NCBI GenBank assembly: GCA_977862235.1
Contig: OZ374565.1
Coordinates: 1,240,001-1,304,000 of the forward strand
Reading direction: 5' to 3'
Origin: Dudresnaya verticillata
Lineage: Eukaryota
Length of the DNA stretch: 64,000 nt
Made by a program: the position numbers and the translations under genes
Notes under the pieces: generated by a model
Seen by the model: only the letters and a program-made list of their open reading frames with translations
Databases searched by the model: none
Told to the model about the DNA's origin: nothing
Part shown: positions 2,918-54,994 of the stretch, piece by piece
Position numbering within the stretch: position 1 is the first letter of the stretch
How the letters are laid out: each line of letters starts with the position of its first letter

Positions 2918-3610
2918 TGTGGTCAAGCGGCCGTTGTGGAGTGCCGACGACGGTTGAGCCGACTCACGACCGGCGCACCGATGAGCTGGCGCCAAAAACC
3001 GAACGGGAGTGCAGCGACACAGTAGCACTGTACGCCTTGCTGGAGTCTGCGCGCACCACCAATAGGAGCCAAGTAGTTGATTTATTTGTAATTAGGTAAT
3101 TGTAATGATGCTGTACAGTACGTAGTGTCAGCCGGCCAATGAGAATGCCGAGCATGTCCGCAACGGTGACTGGGACCAGTAGGGCCGGACCCACCTGGTG
3201 GCCCAGACCCACCTGGTGGCCCAGACCCATTGGGGTCTGGCCCACACGGACCGGACCGCGGGGCGTATCTCCCAGTATATTAATGGGTGGCCACCGCGAG
3301 TCCTACAGTAAACGGGTACGCAACCCTTGGCAAAGTGACTTACCCTAAGCCTTACCCTCATACTCCTTTACGGTTTCCCCTCGCCAGCCCCGCGCACGGA
3401 TTCCTCTTACCTCCGTCCCGGTGTAGCTGCCCTAGCACTGTACCGTCCCCCTTGTCTGTTGCGTCCCTTTACTCCTTACAGGTTTTGCCGCTCGAGGTAC
3501 TCCCTTCGGTCTACGAACTAAGCTCTACCACCCCGGTGCCGTGTGAGATCACTCCTTATTGGGATTGCCTGAACAGCTCTCCTTACAGGTGTGCCTTTCA
3601 CATCACCACA
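2918..3610 (+). repeat. 5' LTR of family A
   Basis: TGTGGT...CACCACA; direct repeat of 14700-15395 with about 20 differences by eye; internal 18-bp tandem GACCCACCTGGTGGCCCA x2. Confidence 0.95.
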
Positions 3611-3770
3611 TCTTTTTGGTCTCCCGACCTAGAACACCGTCAAGGTAGAATAATCTCCGTTGGACTCCGCTTCGGTAGGAGATCAGCTTTGTGACAACTC
3701 CGTATTGGTGTAAAGGCAGGACAAGGCAAAACACTCGTTGACTCCATTTTGGTAACCTAAGAATAGACAC

Positions 3771-6378
3771 ATGGACCCTACCGTATCGGATCAAGGTGAG
3801 GTGCCGTCAACCGCGAGATCACGCCGCGGTGACGATAACACCGTCCCGGAGGTGCCCTCTACTGCGAGAACACGCCGCAGTGAGCCCACCGCACCGGAGG
3901 TAGCCTCAGCCACGAGAACACGCCATGGCGATGCTGCCGACCTGAACCCCGGTATGGAGAACCCCGAAGAACTCCTTAAAGGTGTAGCCAGTAAGCTCGC
4001 TAGATCCCGACCTGGTTCAGACACTTCCCGCAAGGATGTATCCAAACCAGGTGACTCCAATCGTGTCCATTGGATACTTTCGGAGGTCATCCCACGGGTG
4101 TTGGAGAATCTCCGTATAGAGGTGCAACCCAACATGGTCAAGGAGGTTGAGACCACGCTCGCCGACACCGTTCCGGTCATTGTTATCTCCTACCTGGAGA
4201 AACACCTTCCGGAGTTGGTACAGACGCTCATCCGTCAGGAGCGTCAGGCATCGGAGATCGTGCAGATGCCCATCCCCGGACAACCCCTACCGGGACCCAA
4301 GGAGCAGCCCTTTTCTGGACCTACCCCGATACGGAATAACTTCCTGGCGAAGGGAGAAACGACGTACATATGCCAGAAATCCCCACTCAGGTGTTTCCGC
4401 CCGATCCGGTAAGGACAGCGGCAACCCCTGGGTTACCTACCCAAACTGAATACACCGAATTTGATCCAACACACCAACCCCAACCGAATCGGAGTACGGT
4501 CCCTGGACCCGCAGAAGTGCCTGCGGGGGAACGTATCACCGTGCCGGTGGCTTCGCGTAGAGGCAGTGAGCACTCCGAAGGTGACTCCAAGAAAAGCCAA
4601 GACCGGAGTGGTAGAGACAGTGCTGACAGAAAGGCCAAGGACTCCCACTCTGATAAGGAACGTGACCGTTTCGCAACGGAGCAAACGCGCTTCGCGACGG
4701 GACAAAGAACACTCCGGTACGGAATCTGATGATAGCCAACACCGCAATAGGAAGAATAATAAGCGCAACTCGCGCCATAGGCGCCGAAAAGGGGATGACT
4801 CCTCCCATTCCTCTGGCTCTGATACGAGCTACTCCGATACGGATAGGGACGAGCGGCGTCGGGCCAGAAAACACGACGCCAAACACCGAGAGGTCGACAG
4901 GCCACTCCCAAAGGTGATCCGGCCCCTGAACGACAGGTTCGTGAAGGCGCTGGATTTCCGAACATACCGACTGGAGAAAAGAGTTCATACTACAGCTCTA
5001 GCTTGTCCCAGAATATGGGACGTATCCGCAAAAAGCTGGAGGTGCAAATGAAATCCCACTCCTTTAACGGTACAGACCCCATCACGGTCCTTGGATTTCT
5101 CGCGAAGTTTAAGGATGCGTGTAACATCAACTCCATTTCCGAAGGAACCGCACTGTGGTGTTTCCAGTTTTTCTTGAGTGGACAGGCTGAAGCTTTGCTT
5201 CAGGCCCATCTCGCTGGTGGCACCATGGCCGTCGACGAGGAACAAGCAGAGATGCTTCGCACCAATACCGAAGTGGTGAACTTTTTGCTAAGGACTTATG
5301 CTACCGATGAGGTGATTGCCGAAGGGTATTCGGACGTAACGTCGTTTCGACAAACGTCGGCCTTAACGGAAGAGCAATTCTCCAACCAACTTTGGACTAA
5401 GGCACTCCGATGCGGTACAGTATTCTCCGACAGGTCCCTCAAGTCGCTGTTTGTGGAAGGACTCCTGCCGGGAACGTGTCAGCAGATGCGCAATTATCTG
5501 GAAACACACCCCCACATGGATTACCAAGCCATCACCCGCTACGCTAAAGGGCTTGGAGAATCCCATCGGGCAACCAGACGCCAAACCTCAGCGGTGCACG
5601 TCTACGATGGAAACCTAAGAGTCAGTCACGACGCTCTGGCGTTCTGTCCATTGGTTCTCCATCGGATTACACCTACTCGAAGTATCCCACTGAATCGGAA
5701 GAGCACGTGCTCGCCCTGGAAGGTGGCGCGGGTCGAAGCGCCGGCACCTCGTCGGGGGTTACGTTTACTACCGCGTACTCTTCCCCACCGAGTAGTGTCT
5801 ACCCTACTCCGCCTCGGACTCCCAACCTTCGCCCACTAGCGCCAAGGATGCTACCACCCCGGCAACCCCGCTACGGACCGGCTGATAGCCGCTACGGCCC
5901 CTCCACGCACCGTCAAGGAACCGAATACCGTCAAGGAACCACCGGGCAGCATCCCAGCCATATCGGACACCCCCACGGCAACACGCCTCCCCGTCAAGGG
6001 AAGGGCGAACACCGTATTGGAAAACAATCCTATGCCGCAGAGCATACGGATCACACCTCACCGGATGTTAGACGCCTCTATGGAAGCGGCTACTGTCGTT
6101 TGGGCCTCTCCCCGGACCATGTCATTTGTCCGTATCTGAGCGATACCGAAAGGGGTCCCCTGATGGAAGAGCGCGAGCGCAACTATCAGGCGCTCCTCCT
6201 CAAGCGGCAGGCCTTCGCAAACTCCAATACGGGAAATCGTCCGCCGGGTGACTACCAGCAACGCCCAGGGCGGGTGTTGACTGTCGATGGTGGTGCGGTT
6301 GGCGAGCCCCCAGCTGATATGGTGGAGGAGGCACTCATGGCGCATCCCGACTCGGAAAACGTCGCAGGAGACGTGTAA
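3771..6378 (+). pseudogene. gag: gag of family A, broken by about 4 frameshifts
   Basis: Consecutive ORFs 3771-4412, 4370-4729, 4461-5051, 5003-5839, 5707-6378; capsid-like block FNGTDPITVLGFLAKFKDACNINSISEGTALW; degenerate CCHC-like CRLGLSPDHVIC. Confidence 0.8.
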
Positions 6379-6416: not shown

Positions 6417-9400
6417 CCAATACGGGCTTTGCCGGACTGTCAGTACGCCACCATTACGGAGTACCCCCTTGATTTTGTTCCAGAAATCCCCCTTGAATTT
6501 CCACCACCCGGTGATTCTGTCTGTGTTCTACAACGGCAGAATTATAAAATCCAGATTACCGTGGGAAAGAGCAATGACCTCATGTTGCCTCTCATCACCG
6601 TATTGAATTCTGGTGCTGGGCCAAATCTCATTAACGCCAGACGGCTTCCGCGCCACTGGTTGTCTTTGATTCGCCCCGCTGACAGTCCACCTTTACGGGA
6701 TGCGTCCAATAGGTCGATACGCCCTCTTGGTGTCACTCAACTTTTTGTCCGTATCGGAGAATTGCGTACTCGAGTGCACTTCCTGGTGGTCGCGAACCTC
6801 GCTGCTCCGTATATTCTGGGAACCAGTTTTATTGATCGCCATGTCAAGGCGATCCTCCCACCGGCAGGGAAAGTTGTTTTTCATCACCACCCCCCGGTTT
6901 CGCTAACGGGACAAACCAGATACTCCAAAACGGTGGCTGCTTCTACTCTTCAGGGCCCCCTGTGTCATCCGCTTCGGTATCACAAAAGCTCCGACTAGTA
7001 ACATCCCTTATTATCCCCCTACGACCCAATCCCTTGCATTGGTCACCACTCCTACCGGTGGTTTGTGTTTCCTTCAAAACCATCCCAAACCCATCCATAA
7101 GCACCTCACCCTTATGGCTAATGGAGTTATGGATATAAACCCTAACAAACCCTTTAAGGTGTGGCTGACTAATGTTTCCCCCAAACCGGTGCGGTTACCC
7201 AAGTCTACCGTCCTGGGCCTCGCTACTGCTGCTCCCTCTGCCATACTCACCGTTAACGGTGTACCTCCATTTAAGGAGGGGGGAGGACATATTAATTCCT
7301 TTCCTACTCCTCCTAATGAAAGCAGCAAGGCTACACCCCAAGATGGATTCAAAGGAAACACCGTATCGGAATCAACTACAACCCCTGACACCGATTGGAA
7401 AGATAACATCCATATTGGTGCCAAGGATGAAAAACTCCGCGCTAAGGTGGTTACAATCCTTGAGGAGTTCAGCACTATGTGGAACGGTGAGTTAGGAAAT
7501 ATAACTGCCGCAAAACACCGTATTGAATTAATGCCTGGTGCCAAACCGGTGTATCAAGCACCATATCGGGCAGGACATAAACAGCGCGAGCTGGAGAAGG
7601 CAGAAGTGGATCGTGTGTTGTCCGCTAAGGTGATCGAACCATCCGCTTCGGAGTGGGACAGCCCTGTGGTCTTCGTTCCTGAAAAGGACGGCTCCATGCG
7701 GTTTTGTGTCGATTATCGACTTCTTAACGCTGTCACCGTTCGGGATTCATACCCTTTACCCCGGATGGATGAATGTATCGACTCCCATGGAGAAGCTACA
7801 GTATTCACCACTCTGGATTGTAATAGTGCCTACTGGCAAGTAGAGATCCCCGAGGAGGAGCGTGACAAAACTACCTTCACCAGTCATTATGGATTATCCC
7901 GCTTCCGGAGAATACCTTTTGGGCTCAAGAATGCACCCGCTACTTTCCAACGGGCGGTTGACATCATCCTATCTGCGGTGAAATGGCAATTTGCCTTAGT
8001 CTACCTGGATGATGTGATTGTATATTCTAACACCGTCACGGAGCACTTCAAACACCTTAAGGAGGTCCTCACACTACTCCGTTCCGCAAGTGTAACTCTG
8101 AAATTCTCAAAGTGTGCCTTCTTCGACACTTCCGTACAGTATCTAGGCCACATAGTGCGCCCGGGCCAACTGGAAGTGGAACGGAAGAATATTCTCGCCG
8201 TTAAGGAGGCTAAGCCACCTACAAACCAAACGGAGTTGCGCTCTTTTCTAGGATTATGTAACGTCTATCGACGCTTCGGTCCCAATTTTGCACGTATTCT
8301 TTCGCCACTCAATAAGAAAACCGGCAAGGGTCTGGTATTCGAGTTTGGAACTCTCACCGAAACGGAGTTTAACGCCTTTGAGGAGTTAAAGAGACACCTA
8401 ATCTCCCCTCCAATATTGGCTTTACCCCGTCATAGTTTCAACTATACGTTGGATACTGACGCTTGTTATTTCCAAGTTGGGTGTGTCCTTCTCCAGGAGC
8501 CACCTAGTGGAGATAATCTACCAGTGGGTTACTGGAGCCGAAGTCTAACCGATGCGGAGAAGAATTACAGAACCACTGAAAAGGAGTGCCTTGCTGTCGT
8601 TTGGAGTATGCTAACGCTACGCCCCTACCTTTACGGTGAAAAGTTTATACTCCGTACGGATCACGACGCATTACGTTGGATATTGAGTCTAGCCGATGCC
8701 TCTGGACGATTAGCAAGATGGCGCCTACGCCTATCGGAATTTGAGTTCGAAGTACAATACCGCCCTGGTACCAAGCACCAACTCGCAGGCGGTATGTCGA
8801 GACTCCGAACAGGTGGTGCTGACAAAGCTGAGTTGGATGAGGAAGTACCTTGCTTCGTTATGGAATCGACTCCTAATGGTGTAGTGCAACATGGTGTGCG
8901 ACTAACCAATTGGAAACAGACCCAGCAGCCTGATTCCGCAAGCAGCTTTGTCCTAGGCGGTGAAAGTGGAGACACCGAAACGGATACTACGCCTGAAAAG
9001 GATACAGTACCACCCACTCCACTCCGGCAAACGGTCATCCAACAAGAGGATATGCGCAATGAGACCCTTACCCGTGAGGCGTTCATAGCCGCGCAAGCAA
9101 CAGATACTTTCTGCAAGCTTAAATCCGAATCGGTGGGATCCCCTGGATCACAATTTGACTACGACCGACATGGGTTTCTTGTGCGCAAGTCTGCCCTCGA
9201 CGGCGCACTCCAAAAGGTGGTACCGCAACAGATGCGCGGCAGGATCCTGTATCTTGCCCACTACACCTTGATTTCGGGACACCCTGGAGGAATTAAGATG
9301 TACTACACCTTACGGAGAGACTACTATTACGAAAACCAAACGGGGGTATGTCTTTGTACTGGTCATCACCGATCGGTTTTCTAAGCTAACACGGTGCATT

Positions 9401-11400
9401 CCGTTACGGACTATTACAGCCGTCGTGGTAGCGAACGCATTTTTAGACCATTGGGTGTATGCGTATGGCGCTCCTAAATTTGTACTCACCGACAATGGAC
9501 GACAGTTCACGGCGAAGTTCTTTGACGCTGTCTGTGCCCTATGTGGCATAGACGTCAGGTCGAACTGACGTCTAGCTGCGCTGGTCGATCAGTCGCACCC
9601 AGACCCGTCGAAGGGTGGTAGCTGTGGTGGTAGAGCGGTGGTGTCGGCCGTGCGCGCCGTCGACGGTCGCGGATCAACGGCGTCGAAGCCTGAGCGCGCA
9701 CGGGGCGTACCGTAAGCGGGCGGCAGCGGCCGGATCCCTGCGTCCCCGTCGTGGGGCGGCACGAAGCCGACGGTAGGGAAAGGAAAATGAAAGCCTAGGA
9801 GGCTAGGGAAAGAGGGAAGCCGTAGGGCGAAGGACTGGGAAAGAAACCCAAAGCAGAACGGGCAAGCCTGGCGTAGGCTGGCTTGCCTTGTTTACTGAAG
9901 CCCAGAGGGGCGACTACTAGATATACTACAGGGCCTACGGCGGCACCCACCCAGGACGTGCGCCGGCGCGCCCCAACACGCATCGGCGCGTACGGGTAAC
10001 GGTAACCCGGGGGCGCGCGTAGGCGGAACGGTCCACACGTACTCAACGGCTCGACGCCGGGGTGCGCGCGCGTGTCACGCATTCAACGGCTCTGCGCCAG
10101 AGTGCGTGCGCACAGCGCGCAGGACAGCAGGGCGTTCGACCGCCGCTTACACTAGACGGTGCTGTACACTTACAAAACAAAACAATAAACGTAGAAATTA
10201 CATGGGAGTTTCAGTGTCACACGCGAACGCGTGCACACTTGGGCGCCACTGCGCACTCCCTTACAGTTCAGCGGGGCTTCGGCGCCACCGGCTGACAGCG
10301 TGCGCACAGCAGTGCACACGTGTCGCAGCTGGTCTTACAGCTGCGCGTGCGTGGCACAGCTGGTCTTACAGCTATGCCACACCCTACTCGGAGTGCGGCA
10401 TTTGCTGACCGCTGCTTCTCACCCGCAAACCAACGGGCAAGCCGAGCGGTTTAACAAAACCATCGCGCAGCGCCTCCGACACTACGTCGAGGATCACCAC
10501 ACCGATTGGGATTTATACCTACAGCCGTTAACCTACTCCTATAATATGCAGGTACACCGGATCACGGATACTACTCCTTTTGACTTGGTGTTAACTCGAC
10601 ACCCACCGGATATTATTGTGCGTGGCACCCCTGTGGAGTTGGAAGAAACCGTTACGGAGGGGCGTATGACGCCCGTACCCCAAAAGCGGGGAACCATGCG
10701 GCGTTTGCGTTATGCCCTACAGAAGGCGCAGACCAAACAGACTACAGCCCAGTTGAAGTCCAAGGTCCTATTCGACCGTAAGGTGCGCTTCCGACCGGTG
10801 GTTCGCGGTGGCGATCAGGTCTACGTAGATCGCCCGCCGCGCAATCTACGGCCCACCGAACGGAAGGAACGCAACCGATTGGGCCAAGGCCCTGACCACG
10901 TCGGTGAATTTGCGGAGCAAATGAAGAAGCTCCTCCCAAGATCGACGGGCCCCTACTAGGTGCACACCGCAACGGATACTGTAGTCACTATCAAGAAGGA
11001 TGGCGTCCTGATTCCCATGAGCATCGATCGCATCACTAAGGTACCAATTGGAGTTCCCGTGCAACCGGCGCCGCTATTGGCTCCGCCGGTTACGCCACAC
11101 ACCGACGTGGACGGTACAGTATCCCAGCAGGCGGGAGGCACCACAGTAGTATCCCAAACACCAGGTGGTATTACTGTAACGCCCCAAATGCCAGGCGGTA
11201 TTTCTGCCCCCGTGTCAATTAGAGACAATTGATGCCGACACGGAGTATGTCATCGAGCAGATCGTGGGACACCGCGAAGAACCCACGGGCATGACCTACA
11301 AGGTGCGTTGGTACAGCTAACCACCAGACCAGGACACGTATGAACCCGCTGAGGAGTTGCCGCAAAACTTCACATACCGCTATTGGAATAGAAAGCGCAC
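6360..11400 (+). pseudogene. pol: pol of family A (PR, RT, RNase H, IN, chromodomain), disrupted
   Basis: LNSGAGPN (protease D>N), RFCVDYR, YLDD, LDTDAC, TDHDAL, VITDRFSK, LTDNGRQF, HPQTNGQAERFN; chromodomain EYVIEQIVGH..YKVRWY..DTYEPAEEL at ~11240-11400; frameshift ~7000, deletion ~9326, solo LTR insertion, stops. Confidence 0.92.
9542..10381 (-). mobile_element. Solo LTR inserted in family A integrase
   Basis: TGTGGCATAG...CTATGCCACA termini; TSD CCCTA; integrase DAVCAL|LGVRHLL rejoins on removal; orientation inferred from CAGTAAAC motif. Confidence 0.9.
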
Positions 11401-11828
11401 GGCAGCCGCTGCAGCTCGACTTCGCAGAGCTCCCACACGTCGATAGCCAGTCGCTACACACCCACGCAGTAGGGTTTTGGCAAAATCGGGCATGACCCGT
11501 GGACTCCGTGTTCACAGAACCCTTGCCCAAGGGACTCTACTCCATATTGGTGACTTGGCGTTGGTACAAAATGGGCATGACCTCTGGACTCTGGAACCAC
11601 AGAACCCTTGCCCAAGGGGCTCTACTCCATATTGGTGAATAGCCGGCAAGCGAACAACCACTTCTTGTATGAGGTGGTCGTCAACCTGACGCAAAGCCTT
11701 GTATGGTGTAGGGTATCCCCGCCACTTCGGGACTCACTCCACAGTGGTGTTATTCCACTTCCCCTCCGCCAGTGGAAGGGGGGCTCACAAAAATCACAAG
11801 ATTTTATTGACAAGTGGCATTTTTACGC

Positions 11829-14684
11829 TTACACTGCATTTCGCGGACGCTTCGCTGGTGGCGCCAGGTCAGCCTCCGTATCCTCCTCTTTTGCCGCACT
11901 CTGCTCCAAGTCGGGAATATCTTCACCATACACCCTTGCGGTAATCATGGTGAGTCTCCTACCGGTGTCTGCCTTGCGACGACGCAAGGCGCGAATGGTG
12001 CGCCGCAGGCGCACCAGACGCCCGACCCACAGCACTGCGGTGTTAATGGCCTCGTTTGCCGACGCTGGGAGCGGCATACCCGCGTCCCTACACCCTTCGC
12101 GGAGTCGCTGCAGAGCAGCCCCATCGACACGCAAATCCGCGTCGCACCACGTCGCCATTTCCACATCGGTCTCCTTCTCCTTCTTGACCGTGACGGAGTC
12201 GGTCAGCCTTGCCGCGGCACCAGCTGGATCCAAGGGCGTGATGCAGACGACGGAGTCACTAGACTCTGTCGAAGTCGGTTTGACCACGCCGCCCAGTTTT
12301 GGTGTACCTCCCTGCATTGTAGCGAACGGACTCACCCCCAATGGTGTAGACGCCTTTCTTTTCCCCATTGGCGTCGTAGCCACTTCCGCATCGGAGTCTT
12401 CTGGCGATCCAATGGGTCCCAGCTGAGCGGTCTCGGCCACCCGCGCTACGGGCTGGGTCTCCACGCTGGTAACCTTCTCTCCCGTAGTTGGTGGAGCACG
12501 GGCTTCACTAACCCTTGGCAGCACCAGTGTCCTAAGCGGAACCGCATCGGTGTGCGCCGGTGATGACGGGGGCGGCAACACAACCATCCTCCCCTGTGCC
12601 TCTGCTCCTTTTGGAGACACCGTTACGGGCTTAGTCGGCGGTACCGCCCCGCGATCGCGGTTACTCGCCTCAACCTCTGGCGATTCGCGGGGCACCAACA
12701 CCCTCGGGTCTGCACACGTTGACTGGATGCCTACCATTCCCACGGGTGTAACTTCTTCTTGATCTGCCAAGGGGCTCCCGCCACGCGCACGTTCCCCAGA
12801 CGGCATACCCCACTCGCGGTGTCCCGACCGCCTCGGTGGCCCCTCCGTGACCGGATAGTGCCTTGCGTGGGATCGCATCGCATTCCAGTTGGCCATCTCC
12901 TCATCAAGCAACCACACCGGATTGGGGTCCTCTGCCGACAAGTAGTAAAGCAGACCGCACCCTGGACTCAGCGGTGGAACGGACAACACCCGGTCGTCGT
13001 CCCAATGGTAGCCGACGAAACCCGGTGTCTTCTTCCAGTTGGTGTTTGCGTGAATCGTGAACAACCATTGCACGCGCTCCGACGGATACTCGGTCCCCTC
13101 CACGAGCGCGGCTACTCCCATCTGGTGTATGAGCGAAACGACCTTGGCGGGGAACTCGAAAATGCGCCCACAGTCGCCATCCTCCGGCTCGGTGCTGTCT
13201 CTTGGGAAGGCTCTCCAATCGGTCATCTTCGTGTTGGCACGCACACCACGATAGGTAACTTGTAGCCACGAAAAGAGCACGAACATCGCCCACCCCGAAC
13301 GCAGGATCAACTCCAAAACGGCCATCTGTGGGTGATCGATCGACTTCTCTCCGCCTGGGTGTAACTCTTTCCAATTAAGGTGCCGAAGGAACCTATTCGT
13401 GAAGTACGCCACCACGGTCGGAGTTGGCACCGAAAGCCAGCGGGTGACCTCGTACTCGGCCCACCACTCCGGCGCGGTAAGGTAGAGGCTGCGGTGCGAT
13501 GACGCCGGCACTTGGAAGAATTCGTGGGTATTACACGTGTGGAGTAACACCCTACCCAAACGGCGCCCATCGCGATCCCGTGAACGGAGTAGGTGTTCCT
13601 TTGCTGCGTCGTCGGACCACCGTTGCGGATTGCCAAACCAATGTACGCCTTGGTCGTACGGTTTGGTGTAGCACAAGAACTCCACACCCACTGGACGATC
13701 CTGCAGCCGATGTGCGGACACCAATAAGCGGAACAAATTCTCGGGATAACCCTCTTCTTCTTGACACCGCACCCATACGATGTCACACCCACGAGGAGTC
13801 CTTGTCCGGCAAGCGGAGTGAATCCAGCGGGACTTCCACATTTCTTCCCGCCGGTTCGGAAACCACTTGTGGTTGATCAGCCCGCTGGACTCCGTCACGG
13901 CGTTATAGCGGCGCCCCTCCAGCGTCTCGGCATAATCCATCACAAAAACCGAAACGGGAAGGGGGAGGCGGACCATGTCGCGCTCCTCTTCCGTGCGGTG
14001 ACGCCGACCTGTGCGGTGGTCGTATTCGCGACCCAACCACGTCGCCTCATGGATGTAATTGGTTGAGCTCGCGAGACCCCGATACCCAGCTGGAGTGTAA
14101 GACCTTTGCCCAGGTGGAGTCATCACGTCACCCCTCGTCGGTGACGGCCGTGGATGAACGTTCCCAGTCCGACCATGCGGAGTCGCCCACTGCTGCTCCG
14201 ACGTAACGGGCGTGAGCCCCCTGTCGTGGCTCACCGCTTGCGCGGTACTCCATTTCGGTGTTACCCCTGCCAGGCCGATGCGCCCCTTCTCCCACTTGAC
14301 GATCCGGAAGCGGTGTATTCGCCATCCGGCCCTCGCCCCTGAGTTGGCGGCGTGGCACCCTCGGGCTTGCCGGGCGCCCTGGGGTCCGGCCGCCCCAGTC
14401 GGAGACTCCAATACGGTCGTCGCCCGCGCTTCGTCTTGATGCGTGAGCGCCTCCGCGGCCGGCACCTCCCCCGTCGACTGCGCATACCGCGTCGGTTGAA
14501 AAGGGGGCCGCCCGCGGTCAGTGCTGCCACCCGCCATGGCAAGCGGCACACTGGAATGGAAGAACGCGTTGGTTGACGTGCAAGATGATGCGCCAGTTGG
14601 TAAGAGAGCGGATGATGGAACGTGGCGGTGCACCTGAGCGGAGTGCGTACCCAACTCCCGCGGCGCACGAGGACGTGTCGCCAT
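11829..14684 (-). CDS. Antisense accessory protein of Gypsy family A, 951 aa, unknown function
   Basis: Uninterrupted ORF between pol and 3' LTR; ATG 15 nt from LTR boundary; W/Y/F-rich central region, low-complexity linker, basic helical C-terminus ending PPAKRPR. Confidence 0.8.
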   Translation of the reverse strand: MATRPRAPRELGTHSAQVHRHVPSSALLPTGASSCTSTNAFFHSSVPLAMAGGSTDRGRPPFQPTRYAQSTGEVPAAEALTHQDEARATTVLESPTGAAGPQGARQARGCHAANSGARAGWRIHRFRIVKWEKGRIGLAGVTPKWSTAQAVSHDRGLTPVTSEQQWATPHGRTGNVHPRPSPTRGDVMTPPGQRSYTPAGYRGLASSTNYIHEATWLGREYDHRTGRRHRTEEERDMVRLPLPVSVFVMDYAETLEGRRYNAVTESSGLINHKWFPNRREEMWKSRWIHSACRTRTPRGCDIVWVRCQEEEGYPENLFRLLVSAHRLQDRPVGVEFLCYTKPYDQGVHWFGNPQRWSDDAAKEHLLRSRDRDGRRLGRVLLHTCNTHEFFQVPASSHRSLYLTAPEWWAEYEVTRWLSVPTPTVVAYFTNRFLRHLNWKELHPGGEKSIDHPQMAVLELILRSGWAMFVLFSWLQVTYRGVRANTKMTDWRAFPRDSTEPEDGDCGRIFEFPAKVVSLIHQMGVAALVEGTEYPSERVQWLFTIHANTNWKKTPGFVGYHWDDDRVLSVPPLSPGCGLLYYLSAEDPNPVWLLDEEMANWNAMRSHARHYPVTEGPPRRSGHREWGMPSGERARGGSPLADQEEVTPVGMVGIQSTCADPRVLVPRESPEVEASNRDRGAVPPTKPVTVSPKGAEAQGRMVVLPPPSSPAHTDAVPLRTLVLPRVSEARAPPTTGEKVTSVETQPVARVAETAQLGPIGSPEDSDAEVATTPMGKRKASTPLGVSPFATMQGGTPKLGGVVKPTSTESSDSVVCITPLDPAGAAARLTDSVTVKKEKETDVEMATWCDADLRVDGAALQRLREGCRDAGMPLPASANEAINTAVLWVGRLVRLRRTIRALRRRKADTGRRLTMITARVYGEDIPDLEQSAAKEEDTEADLAPPAKRPRNAV

Positions 14685-14699
14685 TTAAGCAGGGGGGTC

Positions 14700-15395
14700 T
14701 GTGGTGAAGCGGCCGTTGTGGAGTGCCGACGACGGTTGAGCCGACTCGCGACCGGCGCACCGATGAGCTGGCGCCAAAAACCGAACGGGAGTGCAGCGAC
14801 ACAGTAGCACTGTACGCCTTGCTGGAGTCTGCGCGCACCACCAATAGGAGCCAAGTAGTTGATTTATTTGTAATTAGGCAATTTTTATCATGCTGTACAG
14901 TACGTAGTGTCAGCCGGCCAATGAGAATGCCGAGCATGTCCGCCGCAACGGTGACCGGGACCAAAAGGGCCGGACCCACCTGGTGGCCCAGACCCACCTG
15001 GTGGCCCAGACCCATTGGGGTCTGGCCCACACGGACCGGACCGCGGGGCGTATCTCCCAGTATATTAATTGGTGGCCACCGCGAGTCCTACAGTAAACGG
15101 GTACGCAACCCTGGGCAAAGTGACTTACCCTAAGCCTTACCCTCATACTCCTTTACGGTTTCCCCTCGCCAGCCCCGCGCACGGATTCCTCTTACCTCCA
15201 TCCCGGTGTAGCTGCCCTAGCACTGTACCGTCCCCCTTGTCTGTTGCGTCCCTTTACTCCTTACAGGTGTTGCCGCTCTAGGTGCTCCCTTCGGTCTACG
15301 AACTAAGCTCTACCACCCCGGTGCCGTGTGAGATCACTCCTTATTGGGATTGCCTGATCAGCTCTCCCTACAGGTGTGCCTTTCACTTCACCACA
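14700..15395 (+). repeat. 3' LTR of family A
   Basis: Direct repeat of 2918-3610, preceded by PPT, followed by TSD. Confidence 0.95.
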
Positions 15396-22740: not shown

Positions 22741-24812
22741 TTCAATCTTGGGATGATGATATTGGGCTTCTGTAAGGGTGAACAACCAACCAAGAGGGGA
22801 CGTGCGATCTGCATTGCAGTAACCGACCGCGATGGCGCAGGGCACTGTAGAAAGCGCGCCTGGTGTCCCACGGGAGTTCGAAGCAATCCTTGTGGGTGAT
22901 GTATCCAAGGGCAATGGGGAAAATGGAAAACGCTTGCTCGCGGTTACGTGTACACTTCTGCGAATATGACAGGTGGTCACGAAAACTTCCGCCCCATCGA
23001 TCCAGAGTCGATTCTTCTGTCGTGTCACGGAGAAGTGGGTTTCAAGTTTCCGACGCTGGTGTTGGACAGGTCTCGGAATGATTATCCAAGATAGTGTGTC
23101 CTAACCGAAGAAGACCTGGACTGGAATGTCGGACAGGAGTGGGACGCTAATCCTGTCGACTGTCTGCTTTGCTTTTGCAGACGCAATAAAGGCGTTGCAG
23201 TTCTGCTTGGCGGTCCCGGTGCGCGTGATGAGAACGGGTCGTTGTCTTAGCATCGTTACCGGGAGGCGAGACGAGTATTTGCACGGAACAATCTCCTGTC
23301 TCGTGCTTGGGCTTCAGTCATGAATACGGTTACGAGTCTCAGCGGGGATGGTATAGGTCTCAAGGTGCAGGAGAAATCGAAGGACATGCCACAGCATGTT
23401 CGCAAGTTGGATCAGCTTGGTCCATTGATTTATCAGTTGGGTGAAGGGCTCAATATTGTGGGCTTGTCCAAGAAGGTGAAGAAGTAATTGAGGAAGGATG
23501 GGTTTAGTTGGATAACTAACACAACTATCCAAGCCAGGGGTCTGTGGCTTGTGAGGTTGTGCGATCCTCCGTCGATGGATGATTGGGTTGCAGTCGATGC
23601 AGGAAAAAGTCTTATCTGGGATTCGGAAGAAGAGCGGCCTGTGAAGTTTTCCATGGAAAGGAATATGGAGAGGTTGAAGTTGAACAAGATGAGAAAAGGA
23701 AGTCGCTTGACTTCGTTGAAGTCGCTTGACTTCGTTTACTGCAGTCGATCATCCGACAAGGCTTATATCGGCTTTTCGGATGAGTTGCTGCGTGAACACA
23801 AACAAAAAACCATTAAAGAAACGCCCAAAATCCCTATCATCAAATGGGCGGGAAAAAGTAAAGCAATCAAATCTACCAAATCATACTCTCAGCACACTCA
23901 CATCCGCCACCAAAATGGGTGGGAACTTGCACACCAGTGTTGCTAACTGCTGACATCAGCAATCCCTCTTGCGACCGCATTTCCTGCCATCCATATGTAC
24001 TCCAACTTTGGGCGGGAACGTGAAAGTATCGAGTGTCCCCGCATGGCTGCAGTCGGACAACGCTGCACACCACGTGGCCGCACTTACCAGCTCAAGTCCG
24101 TCCATGAATATCCAACTTGGATCATTGACCACGCAATCACCCAGATTTGCCTACGTGGCAGCTGTAAACCAACGTGTCGGCCGCACGACAGCTACGTGCC
24201 AACTGTAAACCAACGTGTTGGCCGCGCGACTTCAACGTGGCAACTGTAAACCAACGTGTCGGCCGCACGACAACTGCATCTGCTGATATCACAAGCCAGG
24301 CTCCACGTAGCGCAAGTCCCTGCAGTACCAACTCAGACGCCATCAGCACATTGCATGGCACGTTCATGTGTACTTGTGGAGTACAGTGCGCGTCATACCA
24401 ATACCATTCCATGCCATACCACGTGCATCCATGTGGTCCAATCAGATTGTTCCACTTGGCCGTTTCTGTTATAACCGCCAATTCCAGCACAACACTTGTA
24501 ACCCATATAGACCATGGAGGCGGTTTGGAACAACCAATCAGAAGCCCGTTTCACGTTGCTTTTACAAAAGGCCTAAATGCGCCGTGATTTTGGAAGCCCG
24601 GAAAAGGGGCTGTCGTTTCCGGAAGGTTTGGTGACAGCGTGCCAGGGTGCCATCTGGGGTGCCTGACCCGTGACGTGAGGCGCCAGCGACCATGTCCCCA
24701 ACATTCCAAGATTACACTGCGCATGTGCGCCGGTAATGCTTCCAGAAAATTGTATTTGGGGGAAGTCTATGAGTTGAAGTTGCCATTATTGGGGAAGTGT
24801 AGAGGTAGTTAA
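22741..24812 (+). pseudogene. Degenerate ORF of unknown function, possibly cysteine-peptidase-like, split by solo LTR
   Basis: Single frame with 4 stops from 22741 to 23653, resumes in frame after LTR/TSD (FS|KITLRMCAG); C-terminal WVAVDAGKSLIWDSEEERP. Confidence 0.5.
23654..24703 (-). mobile_element. Solo LTR of the young Copia family
   Basis: Reverse complement of 31388-32420 LTR; TSD TTCCA on both sides. Confidence 0.93.
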
Positions 24813-25570
24813 TTCTTCTTCTCAGCTGTTGCTCGGGGCTTGGGAACAGTTGCTGTTGGAATCCAACGGGTGTTTCGATACTTGAAATCTTGCAGCATGA
24901 ACACTGTTCATTCGCCAGGTGTTTTGGAGCGGTTCTCGGAGACAGCGGCGGCTAGTCTCTTGTTAGGTTTTGCCTTGGTCATTGAATCTGCGGGGTTGCT
25001 GGCACCAGGGATGAGGCATACTGAAGCAATTCTTCCGTCTTGAATCGGTTCGCGGCATTGGTGCCCAATCTCGGGGATAGAGGGACTGTTTCATTCATAA
25101 GGTTGCCCCAGAGAGCCTGGTTGTCGATGTTTACGATAATGGGTACTTCCTTCTTGGCAAGCTGGAAGACGATAATTCGCAAGTCGTTGATACAGCGAAG
25201 TGCAGGATCTAATGCCATAAGCTCCGACTCTTCCGTCGAGTTTGCTCGTCGTAGGGCACCGGACCTCTGCCAGTGGACCGTTGAAGACATCGTTGCGATA
25301 TGAGATGCTGATAAGGAAGCCAATTTGCGCATGCTTCGTGGCCAGGTTTTGGAAAGGGGCATCTGAGTATACGCGGATATGGGTGGACTTCTCATCCAGC
25401 GGAGCGAACTTGAGGCTTGCGTGTCCACTGTTAACACTGATTTTTACAGCTTCAGAACAGAATTTTCCAATTTAAACAGAATCAGAAACACCCCCCTTTT
25501 GTTACGTATGTACATGCATTCGACAGAGGAGAACGAGTTGAGAACAATGGTGGAAACCGTGTACTCTAAA
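24809..25570 (-). pseudogene. Copia-type RT end/RNase H fragment
   Basis: AYTQMP (degenerate YxD), WQRSGALRRANSTEESELMALD, NIDNQAL, NPADSMTK. Confidence 0.7.
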
Positions 25571-26233
25571 GCCTAGCCGTTCCGAAGTTATAGTCGTCCG
25601 CACACAGCTAAATGCGCCCCTGAAATGTCCCGAATTTCCTCTGAAATTTTCCGGAAATATTTCTCAGAAATTGCCCCGGGGCCCCGCCAATGCCCCGCGG
25701 GCCAGGCCCGACTTGCCGCAATTTGCCACCGGGCCCGGGCCGCCCTTGGACACTGCGAAGTGTTCAACATCCCTGCGCACGGCCCATCTGCTCACATCGC
25801 AACTGTGGTGCGTTATTATTCACAACTCCGTACGTTTTATTATACCTATTTTCGAGTTGAACACCGTCGAGGAAAGGGCGGGCTGAATTTCTATTGGAGG
25901 TGGTATTCCCTCACCGCGCGGTGCTGCACTTACCATGGTCAGCGCTCATTTCGAGCGAATACCAGGTTCAACTGTTTCGCCCGGAAAGAATTCTGAAAGC
26001 TATTTCGTCTGTTGGGTTTAAACGCGACAGGGGAGATTGTAACCACAGAGATCTTGAACATTTCCCCGCTGTAGGCGACAATGTGAGTACAACGGCTGCG
26101 GAAAGCACCGCGAAAGGCACCTGGTCAGTGCAGGACATGTGTCTTCCTGGTGAATCCGTAGACGGACTTATTCAGCGCGTTGGTGTGGATCCCATAATCA
26201 CTGCGATGATTGCAACGGAAGAAGCAGGGAAAC

Positions 26234-27244
26234 TGTTGAGGACATGGTCGCTGGCGCCTCACGTCACGGGTCAGGCACCCCAGATGGCACCCTGGCACGC
26301 TGTCACCAAACCTTCCGGAGACGACAGCCCTTTTTCCGGGCTTCCAAAATCACGGCGCATTTAGGCCTTTTGCAAAAGCAACGTGAAACGGGCTTCTGAT
26401 TGGTTGTTCCAAACCCCCTCCATTGTCTATATGGGTTACAAGTGTTGTGCTGGAATTGGCGGTTATAACAGGAACGGCCAAGTGGAACGATCTGATTGGA
26501 CCACATGGATGCACGTGGTATGGCATGGAATGGTATTGGTATGACGCGCACTGTACTCCACAAGTACATATGAACGTGCCATGCAATGTGCTGATGGCGT
26601 CTGAGTTGGTACTGCAGGGACTTGCGCTACGTGGAGCTTGACTTGTGATATCAGCAGGTGCAGTTGTCGTGCGGCCGACACGTTGGTTTCCAGTGGGCAC
26701 GTAGCTGTCGTGCGGCCGACACGTTGGTTTAAAGCTGCCACGTAGGCACATCTGGGTGATTACGTGGTCAATGATCCAAGTTGGATATTCATGGACGGAC
26801 TTGAGCTGGTAAGTGCGGCCACGTGGTGTGCAGTGTTGTCCGACTGCAGCCATGCGGGGACACTCGATACTTTCGAGTTCCCGCCCAAAGTTGGAGTACA
26901 TATGGATGGCAGGAAACGCGGTCGCAAGAGGGATTGCTGATGTCAGCAGTTAGCAACACTGGTGTGCAAGTTCCCGCCCATTTTGGTGGCGGATGTGAGT
27001 GTGCTGAGAGTATGATTTGGCAGATTTGGTTGCTTTACTTTTTCCCGCCCATTTGATGATAGGGATTTTGGGCGTTTCTTTAATGATTTGTTTCGTTTGT
27101 GTTCACGCAGCAACTCATCCGAAAAGCCGATATAAGCCTTGTCGGATGATCGACTGCAGTAAACGAAGTCAAGCGACTTCAACGAAGTCAAGCGACTTCC
27201 TTTTCTCATCTTGTTCAATTTCAACCTCTCCATATTCCTTTTCA
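26234..27244 (+). repeat. Solo LTR of young Copia family lacking TSD
   Basis: TGTTGAGGACATGG...CCTTTTCA; flanks GAAAC vs AATGA differ. Confidence 0.9.
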
Positions 27245-31280: not shown

Positions 31281-32420
31281 CCCATCTACAATCAACCACG
31301 TCTAGGACGCACCGCTACATAGGCACGACAAAAATGCTAAGCCAGCGGAAACGGGTCTCCCCCAAACGATGTCTCTCGACGATCATCTGTTGAGGACATG
31401 GTCGCTGGCGCCTCACGTCACGGGTCAGGTACCCCAGATGGTACCCTGGCACGCTTTCACCAAACCTTCCGGAGACGACAGCCCTTTTTCCGGGCTTCCA
31501 AAATCACGGCGCATTTAGGCCTTTTGCAAAAGCAACGTGAAACGGGCTTCTGATTGGTTGTTACAAACCGCCTCCATGGTCTATATGGCTTACAAGTGTT
31601 GTGCTGGAATTGGCGGTTATAACAGGAACGGCCAAGTGGAACGATCTGATTGGACCACATGGATGCACGTGGTATGGCATGGAATGGTACTGGTATGACG
31701 CGCACTGTACTCCACAAGTACATATGAACGTGCTATGCAATGTGCTGATGGCGTCTGAGTTGGTACTGCAGGGACTTGCGCTACGTGGAGCCTGGCTTGT
31801 GATATCAGCAGATGCAGTTGTCGTGCGGCCAACACGTCGGTTTACAGTTGCCACGTAGCTGTCGTGCGGCCGACACGTTGGTTTACAGTCGGCACGTAGG
31901 TGTCGTGCGGCCGACACGTTGGTTTACAGCTGCCACGTAGGCAAATCTGGGTGATTACGTGGTCAATGATCCAAGTTGGATATTCATGGACGGACTTGAG
32001 CTGGTAAGTGCGGCCACGTGGTGTGCAGCGTTGTCCGACAGCAGCCATGCGGGGACACTCGATACTTTCGAGTTCCCGCCCAAAGTTGGAGTACATATGG
32101 ATGGCAGGAAATGCGGTCGCAAGAGGGATTGCTGATGTCAGCAGTTAGCAACACTGGTGTGCAAGTTCCCGCCCATTTTGGTGGCGGATGTGAGTGTGCT
32201 GAGAGTATGATTTGGTAGATTTAATTGTTTTACTTTTTCCAGCCCATTTGATGATAGGGATTTTGGGCGTTTCTTTAATGATTTGTTTTGTTTGTGTTCA
32301 CGCAGCAACTCATCCGAAAAGCTGATATAAGCCTTGTCGGATGGTCGACTGCAGTAAACGAAGTCAAGCGACTTCCATTTCTCATCTTGTTCAACTCCAA
32401 CCTCTCCATATTCCTTTTCA

Positions 32421-32434
32421 GGTTATGGGCCCAG
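32421..32434 (+). promoter_or_regulatory. PBS complementary to internal half of tRNA-iMet
   Basis: GGTTATGGGCCCAG directly after LTR, as in Drosophila copia; also at 55496, 58876 and (minus strand, AGTTATGGGCCCAG) ~50202-50215. Confidence 0.85.
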
Positions 32435-33360
32435 AAGGTCGACCTACGCAGACTTCATCGCTTCGCTGCAACCTTCTTCCTTTTTCTTTTCATTCTTGAT
32501 ACTGTCCGGTCCCGTCCTGGCCTGTCCTGTCTGCTTGTGTCCTGTCCTGTCGGCTTGTGTCCTGTCCTGTCTGCTTGTTGTCTGTTGAAAGTGGTCCCTA
32601 TCCCACTGTGTCGGCTTGTGTCTCTGATTTTGTGAGAGAGTTCTCGAGGCTCTCGTCCGCTGTTGTCTTGGTCCGTGAGCTTGCTGAGAGGTTGAGTGTT
32701 GTGCGTGGTGACTCTCGTTAAGTCAGGACCTCGTTGGCCTAGGGGAGCAGCCTCCAGTAAGATCCAGAACCTTGACACGGTTGGGCCTAGTTCCATTCCT
32801 GCAAGAGACTGGACCTGTTCGTGTGGTGAACACTCGTTTTGAGTTAGTACCCATAAGGTGGACGTCTCGTAAGGATTGCATACTTCGTGTCTGTGTGCGC
32901 ACGACACGAAAGGGCTGCTGAAAGACGCATTTCACCCGGAGAATCATATCCGGGGGCCAGGAGTCCGACTCCTAGGGGTGACTAGGTAGAACCTGGTGCC
33001 AGAACATCCCGCGTCAAACAAAAAGACGTTCAACTATCAAGAATCAACTTTTCAACTTCAAGTTTCAACTTTTCTTCTTCAGTCCAGGTGATCCCATCAT
33101 CACCTGAGAGTTTCATTACTCCAAGCGTGGGAGCTACTTGGCAAAGTGTGCTCCGCTTGTGACTGTATTATATTACCGACGTGTTCGACACATTTCTCAG
33201 TTTCGTCGTCACGTCTTCGTTGTGTGAGCTGCACTGCTCTGCTTAACACGACTATTACCCTCTGGGCATCGACACTGTTGCACTAACAGCACTGCCCCAA
33301 GTTCACCAAGTCTTCTAAAACTATTCAAGTTATCTCTTCTCAGCATCAGTCCCAACAGCG

Positions 33361-50433: not shown

Positions 50434-51634
50434 GGCGTTAACGCCGACCGTCTTCAACTTTGACGCGGGGCAATATCAGCTAACCGGCGAGGCCGAATAT
50501 GGTGGTCATCTTGGGACGTTATCGCTCAGACACGTGAACGTGTCGATTGAGCCTCGCGTTTTGCAAGAGGCTTACCTCTTAGGTGTAAGCTTGAAAGCGG
50601 ATTTTCGTTATCTGCATCGGACGGGTACGTTCTTTAGGGAGCGTCGTATCTGTTGGGAATGTGAAACGCGTCGCAGAAAGGGCGTGTTTGTACCTCATCA
50701 GGACATCCAAGTCGACCGCATTGAGCGGAGTAAGTTACACCACTGTTTTGTGAATATGCCGCCTGTGTGGCGTGAGTTTGAGATATGCGAAGGTTCTGCA
50801 GCCGAGCTCCCCGCGTGTGACACGTATCTTGGTTCCGAACTGATGACAGACCCGTATTCGAGGCATGGGTAGCGTTCTACACCGAATGGGTGGCCAACGT
50901 AACATACACTTGGTTGTGTGAGGTATATGACACCTTCCGTATGTACTACAGTATATGCCGCTGCGTGTGGTCGCCATTCTTGGTGGCCTCGACGTAGTCG
51001 AAATACACGGTGGTTCGCGGAACTGCCAGGCGTTCTGGTATTTACGCGCTGCTGCGGATGGTATTGATTGGAACGACCCAGTTGCCATGCCGTTAGCCAA
51101 CAACCAACATAAGGCGAATCGTCCGCGTTACGCGATGAGTCGTACTCATTCCGTTTGTGGCGATTGGATTTGATATAGCCCTTGGCCAAAACGTCGCACG
51201 ACGAAGAATATTGCGGAAAGCCATCGCAAGAGTGATGGCTTCACGCCGGGTAATCACCCGCGCGATTTGCGTAAGAACTGCTACTTTGTCGGTGATTTTC
51301 CTCCTCATTTTAGCGCCTTGATAGCGGGAGAGGATGCCTTCCACGCCAATGGCGGACCGGAGAACTGTATTATCTCTAAAGCACCGCCGCGTCAGCAGCC
51401 AAACGAGACCCCAAGAAGACCACAAAGACCTGTCGGATTTAACCAAAAATTGGCCAGAACGTAGAACGGACCTGCGCGTCGGTAGCAAGCGTGGTAGAGC
51501 GGGAGCGCGCAGACGAAGTCGTGACCAAATTCTGCGATGAGGACAGAAAATGGCCAAGCCGGGGGTTCAGTTGCTAACTTTACTCCCAACCTCTGGCGGG
51601 ACGGCTTCGTACCTATTCTGGCCGAGCCGTAGTC

Positions 51635-54292: not shown

Positions 54293-54994
54293 TTTTTGTT
54301 CCCATTACCCGATTGGTAGGGTGCGTATCTCGATTTGCGATCTGGATCCAGCGACGTGCGCGTATCGCGAAACAAACCATCTGTAAACGTTACACAGGCC
54401 GCGAAATCTCCGTAGCTCCTTCTGAGCCCGTGGATGCTTGGCTTCGCGCAGCGCGGCAGTGACAGTTTGATCGACTTCCAGCCGTCCTGGACGTATGACA
54501 GGACCCAAATAGTTGACAGTCAGGGTGAAGAGGTCACACTTGGTCAACTTCAAAGTCACCCCGGCCCGATGTAAGGTCGATAGGATCTCGTCAATGTGAC
54601 GGAAATGGCTGTCGATGTCGTTTGAGAAGATGATTACGTCGTCACGGTAGACGAGGCATGAGCGCCACTTGTAACCAGCGAGGAGGATGTCAAGCGTCCG
54701 TTAAAACGTAGCGGGCGCGTTTGTGAGACCGAAACGCATACTGTTAATGTTATAGTGGAACAGTCCGACATGGCACGTAAAAGCAGTCTTATCGCGGTCT
54801 CACGGATTTATCGGCACCTGCCAGTACCCACCGTTACCGTCTAGGGTGGTGAAGACGTTTGCCTCCCCTCGACTGTCAATTCACTCGTCGATAAACGGAA
54901 ACGGGTGCGTATCCCGCACGGTTACTGCGTTCAAACGACGATATTCTACGCAAAAGCGGAGGGTCCCGTCCTTCTTGGGGGCGAAGACCACTAG
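54293..54994 (-). pseudogene. Gypsy reverse transcriptase fragment
   Basis: PKKDGTLRFCVEYRRLNAVT, GYWQVPI, FGLTNAPATF, LVYRDDVIIFS, LKLTKCDLF..YLG. Confidence 0.9.

What the first reader, a model, noticed from the sequence alone, without database searches (positions are those of the whole stretch)
11829..14684. Intact 951-aa antisense ORF in an otherwise dead Gypsy element
Seen: the ORF fills the space between the chromodomain and the PPT on the opposite strand, its first ATG is 15 nt from the 3' LTR, and it has no stops or frameshifts, whereas gag/pol of the same element carry about ten lesions in ~7.6 kb. I recognise no domain and see no obvious signal peptide or TM anchor, so it does not look like env; it ends in a basic helix and NLS-like PPAKRPR. 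Known: antisense extra ORFs occur in plant Tat/Retand, RIRE2 and Grande elements. Inference: a nuclear accessory factor (e.g. anti-silencing or targeting) driven antisense from the 3' LTR, possibly retained under selection.
Basis: partly seen in the sequence, partly recalled or inferred. Interest (0 to 1): 0.9.

Follow-up and report, generated by a model that had tools for sequence, protein, structure and literature searches.

The report
Antisense accessory gene of seaweed retrotransposons
A broken retrotransposon, likely from a red seaweed, still carries an unbroken backwards-facing extra gene that many related elements share; its protein is predicted to fold into a shape that matched no solved structure and likely works in the nucleus to help switch the element on, though its survival in this particular copy may be luck.

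Summary
A stop-free 951-codon ORF (11829-14684, minus strand) lies between pol and the 3' LTR of a chromodomain-bearing Ty3/Gypsy element whose gag/pol carry about ten lesions.

It is a real gene of an unnamed family. Residues ~214-578 have 79 homologues; the only ones naming an organism are red algae. They fold confidently (pLDDT 87.6, pTM 0.89) and match no Pfam family, PDB structure or viral model searched (best Z 3.1).

In related elements, 15-17 of 32 carry a homologue antisense just behind pol, none in sense. The count is 0-1 of 28 in distant Gypsy elements. The gene shows purifying selection in relatives (dN/dS 0.21-0.49) and largely tracks the RT tree. A disordered linker leads to a conserved helix-loop-long-helix module (weak bHLH-zipper likeness) and a frequent C-terminal NLS-like motif.

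The arrangement is known from Retand, Grande and Boty; the protein family is not. Special retention in this copy is not supported: chance survival is 0.03-0.33, and a second copy in the window is shattered.

Best mechanism (inferred, ~40%): a nuclear trans-regulator made from the 3' LTR that promotes the element's own expression. Transcription, dimerisation and binding are untested.

The parts
2918..3610 (+). 5' LTR (TGTGGT...CACCACA), preceded by TSD CAGTG
3771..6378 (+). gag, broken by four frame changes (the first weakly supported)
6500..11430 (+). pol (protease-like region, RT, RNase H, integrase, chromodomain) with six lesions; the RT-RNase H frame 6907-9384 is still open
9542..10381 (.). 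nested solo LTR (TGTGGCA...TGCCACA, TSD CCCTA) inside integrase
11483..11645 (.). 85-bp-period duplication in the spacer between pol and the antisense ORF's stop; no unusual RNA fold
11829..14684 (-). 951-aa antisense accessory ORF
12951..14045 (-). conserved globular core, residues ~214-578, unnamed family, confidently predicted fold
11910..12131 (-). helix-loop-long-helix module, residues ~852-925, shared with homologues; weak likeness to bHLH-zipper dimerisation domains
11832..11861 (-). C-terminal basic motif PPAKRPR (NLS-like; motif class recalled)
14685..14699 (+). polypurine tract region (AAGCAGGGGGG) between the ATG and the 3' LTR
14700..15395 (+). 3' LTR followed by TSD CAGTG; presumed site of the antisense promoter (inferred)
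50434..51170 (+). second, broken member of the same ORF family (three frames, directly after a Copia insertion), antisense to and downstream of a Gypsy RT fragment at 54347-54991 (-)

Best explanation
This ORF is the antisense accessory gene of a clade of chromodomain-bearing Gypsy retrotransposons, likely of red algae, and it likely encodes a nuclear, predicted-dimeric regulator, made from a promoter presumed to lie in the 3' LTR, that would bind the element's own nucleic acid and help it be expressed despite host silencing. SHOWN: the family, its fixed antisense position behind pol, purifying selection in relatives, and largely vertical inheritance with RT. PREDICTED: a compact ~365-residue core with no structural match, a disordered linker, and a helix-loop-long-helix module. 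INFERRED: nuclear import (C-terminal basic motif); dimerisation (HLH-zipper-like module); nucleic-acid binding (about a dozen conserved Arg plus conserved Trp/Tyr/His in the core); a separate antisense transcript that can be made while the genomic RNA is off; and an activating rather than repressing role. This copy's intact frame is most likely a survivor of ordinary decay.
For: FAMILY: 79 homologues of residues 190-620, best E 1e-26, 24-43% identity. Gracilariopsis chorda holds it at five named gene loci; the four distinct proteins are 91-97% identical. A Gracilaria changii Trinity transcript is a member. CONTEXT: of 60 loci with the 3' end of pol and >=2 kb downstream, a homologue lies on the minus strand in 15 of 32 (profile built before the loci were seen) or 17 of 32 (iterated profile) with RT >=45% identical to the window's. 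It lies on the plus strand in 0 of 32, and appears in 0-1 of 28 more distant Gypsy loci. Reversed decoys gave no hit. L004 and L011 have open gag, pol and antisense ORF together. SELECTION: dN/dS in the ORF frame is 0.21-0.49 in 10 pairs, against 0.98-2.16 in the other two antisense frames. TREES: 8 of 9 supported ORF-tree splits recur in the RT tree; Mantel rho 0.43 (n=17), 0.23 (n=13). STRUCTURE: pLDDT 87.6, pTM 0.89; the full-length model shows core, disorder and C-terminal helices. Four of the seven best structural rows for residues 849-922 are bHLH/bHLH-zipper chains (OmoMYC Z 5.8, rmsd 2.3 over 65; TFEB 5.3; Max 5.1). BASIC MOTIF in the last 25 residues: 13 of 27 long proteins; 20 of 43 with redundant members, against 1.8% background. 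The element already has a chromodomain for targeting. [quoted passage not shown]
Against: Nothing here measures function, localisation, binding or transcription. The core has no structural relative to lend a mechanism. The core's net charge is neutral (48 K+R, 49 D+E), so the conserved Arg may be internal salt bridges. The bHLH likeness is under the tool's bar for helical shapes (Z<13), the top row is a centriole linker, Pfam finds no HLH at E<=10, and there is no basic region before helix 1. About half of the clade loci (15 of 32) show no homologue at E<0.001; some are truncated or weak, but L006, L089, L099/L114 and L136 seem to lack it, so it is not essential. The 32 loci are not independent (about nine positive lineages). 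L101 has a homologue in sense after a truncated pol. The host of the window is inferred; only 2 of 30 homologue clusters looked up name an organism.
Confidence: 0.42

Rival explanations
1. Rev/CERV-like factor: the nuclear protein binds the element's full-length RNA and escorts it out of the nucleus or stabilises it.
For: Same architecture fits: conserved Arg/aromatic core, oligomerisation module, basic motif. CERV of Cer1 does this for an LTR retrotransposon (PMC10309623, abstract).
Against: No conserved structured RNA was seen in the spacer: the 85-bp repeat folds no better than shuffles (z -0.45 to 0.39), 9 of 11 relatives' spacers have no repeat, and Rfam gives nothing. CERV is made from a spliced mRNA of the element.
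Confidence: 0.2
2. Cofactor of the particle or integration complex (nuclear import or tethering with integrase).
For: Basic C-terminal motif; largely co-inherited with RT. This role is proposed for such ORFs in PMC7264820.
Against: Pol already carries a chromodomain. In the L103/L107/L119 family, RT and this ORF have swapped partners (RT/ORF dS 0.87/0.31 versus 0.24/0.86). A separate antisense message is an odd route for a stoichiometric particle part (inference).
Confidence: 0.12
3. The core is an enzyme of unknown type (for example acting on methylated or damaged nucleic acid).
For: Near-invariant Asp/Glu/Arg/His/Tyr scattered along a compact domain.
Against: No match to any solved enzyme fold and no recognisable catalytic motif.
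Confidence: 0.1
4. A self-limiting or host-rewiring factor, like HTLV-1 HBZ: the basic-less HLH-zipper-like module traps host bHLH factors and damps or redirects transcription.
For: bHLH/bHLH-zipper chains are frequent among the top rows for residues 849-922, and an acidic rather than basic stretch precedes helix 1. HBZ is a nuclear antisense product (PMC11963269, passage; its bZIP and 3' LTR origin are recalled).
Against: Z scores are in the range of common helical shapes, and the motif is detectable in only 16 family sequences.
Confidence: 0.08
5. This particular copy has been kept by host selection (domestication) while gag/pol decayed.
For: 0 lesions in 2.86 kb against ten in ~6.8 kb: P 0.015-0.03 if the region is fixed beforehand. 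0 of 11 columns conserved at >=90% deviate, while the window RT deviates at 5 of 118 near-invariant columns, the worst of 34.
Against: The ORF was picked because it is open (P~0.33 for some gap this long). Substitutions alone at the LTR-derived rate leave it open 26% of the time. 4 of 27 columns conserved at >=80% deviate, rank 29 of 36. The second copy in the window is broken. In 12 reference-to-copy comparisons there were 39 stops or frameshifts in 3608 ORF codons against 13 in 4139 RT codons (my sum; loci were chosen by pol, which favours intact RT).
Confidence: 0.12

Closest known systems
Antisense ORFs between pol and 3' LTR of plant non-chromoviruses (Retand/TRP28, maize Grande gene23, rice RIRE2, PvRetro13 ORF2); PMC7264820, PMC11963269
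   Same: Position, orientation, family-wide conservation, SMC-like coiled-coil hits in some members, proposed nuclear regulatory role.
   Different: The carrier is a chromodomain-bearing element, likely of red algae. No TRP28 (PF04195) or PMD (PF10536) hit in 80 + 15 proteins. The core is a different family with no structural match.
brtn of Botrytis Boty/BcGypsy1 (PMC7264820; 10.1101/2021.04.13.439636, passages)
   Same: Antisense extra gene in a non-plant Gypsy element.
   Different: No fungal protein was named among the 30 homologue clusters looked up. Direct comparison was not possible because no brtn sequence came from a tool.
VANC anti-silencing proteins and MAIN/PMD (PMC13547354, passages)
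   Same: Transposon-encoded accessory protein with a globular domain plus a coiled-coil predicted to dimerise; the working model for what this does.
   Different: VANC belongs to Mutator DNA transposons. No PMD sequence hit here; whether the folds are related is unresolved.
CERV of C. elegans Cer1 (PMC10309623, abstract); HTLV-1 HBZ
   Same: Nuclear accessory regulators of LTR elements; HBZ is antisense.
   Different: No sequence or fold match found. CERV comes from a spliced mRNA.

Membership tests
Ty3/Gypsy LTR retrotransposon with chromodomain (chromovirus type) | LTRs with TG...CA ends, TSD and PPT; pol order RT-RNase H-integrase | tested here: met
Ty3/Gypsy LTR retrotransposon with chromodomain (chromovirus type) | chromodomain at the integrase C-terminus | tested here: met
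   PF00385 below cut-off in the broken copy; 46-54% identity to intact pol there; PF00385 on most top relatives
Ty3/Gypsy LTR retrotransposon with chromodomain (chromovirus type) | placement in a named chromovirus clade by reference phylogeny | not tested
   no REXdb/GyDB reference set was available
aORF-3R class (antisense ORF between pol and 3' LTR) | lies between pol and 3' LTR, antisense | tested here: met
aORF-3R class (antisense ORF between pol and 3' LTR) | carried by many related elements and conserved like element genes, not a one-off capture | tested here: met
   15-17 of 32 clade loci; dN/dS 0.21-0.49; tree congruence
aORF-3R class (antisense ORF between pol and 3' LTR) | present in most copies of this element's own family | not testable with these tools
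   no genome is held for the window
aORF-3R class (antisense ORF between pol and 3' LTR) | own antisense transcript | not testable with these tools
   no run was listed; a homologue is a Gracilaria changii Trinity record of unknown strand
Retand/Grande TRP28 proteins | PF04195 Transposase_28 domain | tested here: not met
   0 of 80 and 0 of 15 proteins at E<=0.01; none for the window protein at E<=1
Retand/Grande TRP28 proteins | carried by a non-chromovirus (no chromodomain) | tested here: not met
PMD/MAIN/VANC | PF10536 plant mobile domain by sequence | tested here: not met
PMD/MAIN/VANC | same fold | tested here: inconclusive
   whether a VANC/PMD structure is in the PDB copy is unknown (one search found no paper); no AlphaFold DB library was on hand
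env-like ORF | sense orientation | tested here: not met
env-like ORF | signal peptide and membrane anchor | tested here: not met
   N-terminal 19-residue hydropathy maximum 0.5; overall maximum 1.59 falls on the central helix (452-479) of the globular model
bHLH-zipper proteins | helix-loop-helix-zipper geometry | tested here: inconclusive
   Z 5.8, rmsd 2.3 over 65 residues to OmoMYC; under the bar for helical shapes
bHLH-zipper proteins | basic DNA-binding region before helix 1, and PF00010 | tested here: not met
   the stretch before helix 1 is acidic; no Pfam hit at E<=10
bHLH-zipper proteins | four-helix dimer | not testable with these tools

The most novel reading that the evidence does not exclude
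Red-algal chromoviruses evolved, independently of plants, their own anti-silencing or trans-activating protein. It would be a new ~365-residue fold joined to a basic-less HLH-zipper dimeriser, expressed backwards from the 3' LTR and carried vertically with RT through many lineages. This copy may have been kept by the host after the element died.
Probability: 0.25. Interest if true: 0.8.

Novelty: new variant of a known kind. Interest (0 to 1): 0.56.

Why it matters
The origin and function of antisense extra ORFs in LTR retrotransposons is an open question (PMC7264820, PMC11963269). This case adds a carrier clade far from the known plant and fungal ones, one that already has a chromodomain. It has an alignable family, a confident model with no structural match, natural elements with and without the gene, and intact examples (L004, L011). 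That makes the accessory-gene question testable in a new lineage, and suggests that 'globular domain + coiled coil + NLS, antisense from the 3' LTR' has arisen more than once. It also re-labels several Gracilariopsis 'hypothetical proteins' as likely transposon genes.

Tried and rejected
NO ANNOTATION FOUND:
- Pfam, PHROGs and NCBIfam: only coiled-coil-type hits.
- PDB by sequence or profile: nothing at useful E-values.
- Foldseek on PDB and BFVD: no match at E<=0.001.
- VIA-align against 48,161 chains: best Z 3.1 for the core. A missing match does not prove a new fold.
- ESM Atlas: nothing >=0.8 by features; its own model of the Gracilariopsis protein is poor (pLDDT 0.31).
- Word-seeded protein searches found nothing, even with an alignment of known members, so those blanks are insensitivity.

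NO DATA AVAILABLE:
- No genome is held. No sequencing run was listed, and no RNA holder.
- Viral contigs gave none of the clade.
- Complex prediction for the C-terminal module was not available.
- Earlier findings: nothing shown.

IDEAS DROPPED:
- A SAP/HeH reading of the C-terminal module (recalled motif): no Pfam support and not among the listed structural rows.
- A structured-RNA role for the 85-bp repeat.

CONTROLS AND ERRORS:
- The 'spacer' dN/dS control failed because those stretches hold decayed coding sequence.
- The sense frame that shares third positions also gives 0.35-0.74, as expected.
- The first co-phylogeny took the wrong RT for L137; corrected.
- The sigma-70 promoter scan does not apply to a eukaryote.

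LITERATURE: nine searches listed no paper describing an antisense ORF in red-algal Gypsy elements. Subscription papers, Repbase/GyDB entries and genome-paper supplements were not seen and could hold such a note.
Full report
1. THE OBSERVATION. The frame 11829-14684 (-) is open for 951 codons; same-composition simulations reach at most 390 codons in 300 trials. It sits in an LTR element bounded by 2918-3610 and 14700-15395, with TSD CAGTG and 2.6% LTR divergence. Its ATG is 15 nt from the 3' LTR. Gag changes frame four times and pol has six lesions, one of them a nested solo LTR.

2. IT IS A PROTEIN FAMILY. Word-seeded searches missed it, but phmmer of residues 190-620 over 1.84 billion representatives found 79 homologues, 21 at E<=1e-10. 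I looked up 30 of the 79. Two name an organism: Gracilariopsis chorda (five gene loci; four proteins 91-97% identical) and a Gracilaria changii transcript. The window's host is therefore inferred to be a red alga, not shown.

The alignment has many conserved Arg, Trp, Tyr, Asp and Glu columns. AlphaFold2 with 80 sequences gives pLDDT 87.6 and pTM 0.89. The full-length model shows disorder at 1-213 and ~596-851, the core at ~214-578, and a confident helix 855-868, loop and helix 876-918. No Pfam, PHROG, NCBIfam, PDB or BFVD match explains the core. The best Z against 48,161 chains is 3.1, below the tool's usual background of 7-8; that is suggestive of, but does not prove, a new fold.

The C-terminal module's nearest shapes include several bHLH/bHLH-zipper chains at Z 4-6, a lead only. 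A basic motif ends 13 of 27 long proteins, the window's included.

3. IT TRAVELS WITH THESE ELEMENTS. A pol alignment retrieved 159 loci. I dropped 99 that lacked the 3' end of pol or had under 2 kb downstream. Of the other 60, 32 have RT >=45% identical to the window's. A homologue lies antisense within 6 kb behind pol in 15 of the 32 with a profile built before the loci were seen, and in 17 with an iterated profile; it lies in sense in none. Among the 28 more distant loci the count is 0 and 1. The positives fall into about nine lineages, so they are not 15 independent events.

Five plus-strand hits elsewhere in the loci were checked. L122 is antisense to a second pol; L109 follows an inverted LTR; L142 is short and unresolved; L148 is weak and overlaps RT; L101 is in sense behind a truncated pol and is unexplained. 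Several clade members seem to lack the gene (L006, L089, L099/L114, L136).

Between related copies, dN/dS in the ORF frame is 0.21-0.49 in 10 pairs against 0.98-2.16 in the other antisense frames. RT values in the same families span 0.05-0.95. Eight of nine supported ORF-tree splits recur in the RT tree; two of the 17 tips were paired only by equal contig length and source, and one of them used a cluster-mate, P0210. In four of the five relatives where I could place the PPT or LTR with some confidence, a start codon lies within about 20-270 nt of it; in L137 it is ~1.5 kb away.

4. IS THIS COPY SPECIALLY PRESERVED? The evidence is weak. With the region fixed in advance, P is 0.015-0.03; allowing for its having been picked because it is open, P is ~0.33. 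Substitutions alone at 1.3% leave it open 26% of the time. It deviates at 4 of 27 columns conserved at >=80% (rank 29 of 36) but at 0 of 11 columns conserved at >=90%. A second member in this window (50434-51170, antisense to an RT fragment at 54347-54991) is split across three frames directly after a Copia insertion. Decayed relatives have 39 lesions in 3608 ORF codons against 13 in 4139 RT codons (my sum of 12 comparisons; biased because loci were chosen by pol). I put retention at ~12%.

5. MECHANISM. The gene is conserved yet not universal, is separate from the gag-pol message, has no membrane features, and usually ends in a basic motif after a coiled or HLH-like module. Its carrier already has a chromodomain. 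That anatomy fits a trans-acting nuclear regulator that can be made while the genomic transcript is off. I commit to activation or anti-silencing through binding the element's own nucleic acid (0.42). The rivals are Rev/CERV-like RNA handling (0.2), an integration or particle cofactor (0.12), an enzyme (0.1) and an HBZ-like damper (0.08).

6. COMPARISON WITH WHAT IS KNOWN. Antisense ORFs at this position are described for Grande, RIRE2, Retand, PvRetro13 and fungal Boty, with function unknown (PMC7264820; I read parts 1-2 of 3, the whole main text). 97% of Retand clusters carry TRP28 (PMC11963269, passages). Extra ORFs in green-plant Gypsy elements are typical of non-chromoviruses and very heterogeneous (PMC6317226, passages). 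Also seen: 10.1101/2021.04.13.439636 (passages), PMC13547354 (passages) and PMC10309623 (abstract). This ORF meets the positional definition of that class but fails the TRP28, PMD and env tests. Nine searches of the open library listed no description in red algae; closed papers, supplements and repeat databases were not seen.

7. VERDICT. A known kind of arrangement with a new protein family and possibly a new fold, in a lineage where I found it undescribed. The headline 'intact gene in a dead element' is probably incidental. New variant of a known kind; interest 0.56.

Noticed in passing
window 9542-10381: 840-bp solo LTR (TG...CA inverted ends, 5-bp TSD CCCTA) nested in the integrase; no other copy in the window or the loci.
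   Followed up: partly
window 50434-51170 (+), 54347-54991 (-), 45704-50433: Second, shattered member of the ORF family beside a Gypsy RT fragment in the expected opposite orientation, directly after a Copia element with 219-bp LTRs and TSD GGCGT.
   Followed up: partly
window 3611-3640: After the 5' LTR comes TCTTTT then TGGTCTCCCGACC, a possible primer-binding site set 6 nt off the LTR. It looks tRNA-Tyr-like from recall only; relatives have a different site, TGGAGCAGCAGGGG.
   Followed up: no
window 11483-11645; L011 9302-9652: Short duplications in the pol-ORF spacer in the window and L011, none in 10 other spacers.
   Followed up: partly
L103, L107, L119: RT and antisense ORF give opposite relationships (dS 0.87/0.31 vs 0.24/0.86), suggesting recombination between the two modules.
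   Followed up: no
L099 6339-9588; L114 3557-6806: Clade elements without the ORF family but with several overlapping long frames (500-800 aa) on both strands behind pol; no Pfam hit for the four L099 frames tested. Possibly a different accessory gene or a GC artefact.
   Followed up: partly
L101 5505-7580: A family member in sense orientation behind a pol that stops in RNase H; inversion or misassembly.
   Followed up: no
L003-L012 (records CAZKHC01...): A bacterial MAG labelled Algimonas holds ten contigs of eukaryotic Gypsy elements of this clade, i.e. likely host contamination; many other MAGs hold Gypsy contigs too.
   Followed up: no
window 31388-37557 and 57884-64000; 23654-27244; 39886-41464/44000-45590: Two 97.5% identical Copia-like copies with long open frames (1454 and >=1413 aa) and several large inverted repeats; the window appears to be almost all nested elements.
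   Followed up: no
window ~6360-6378; L003, L005, L008, L009, L011: Gag frames end at a shared ...SEN/...RN motif overlapping the start of the pol frame, suggesting a conserved programmed frameshift.
   Followed up: no
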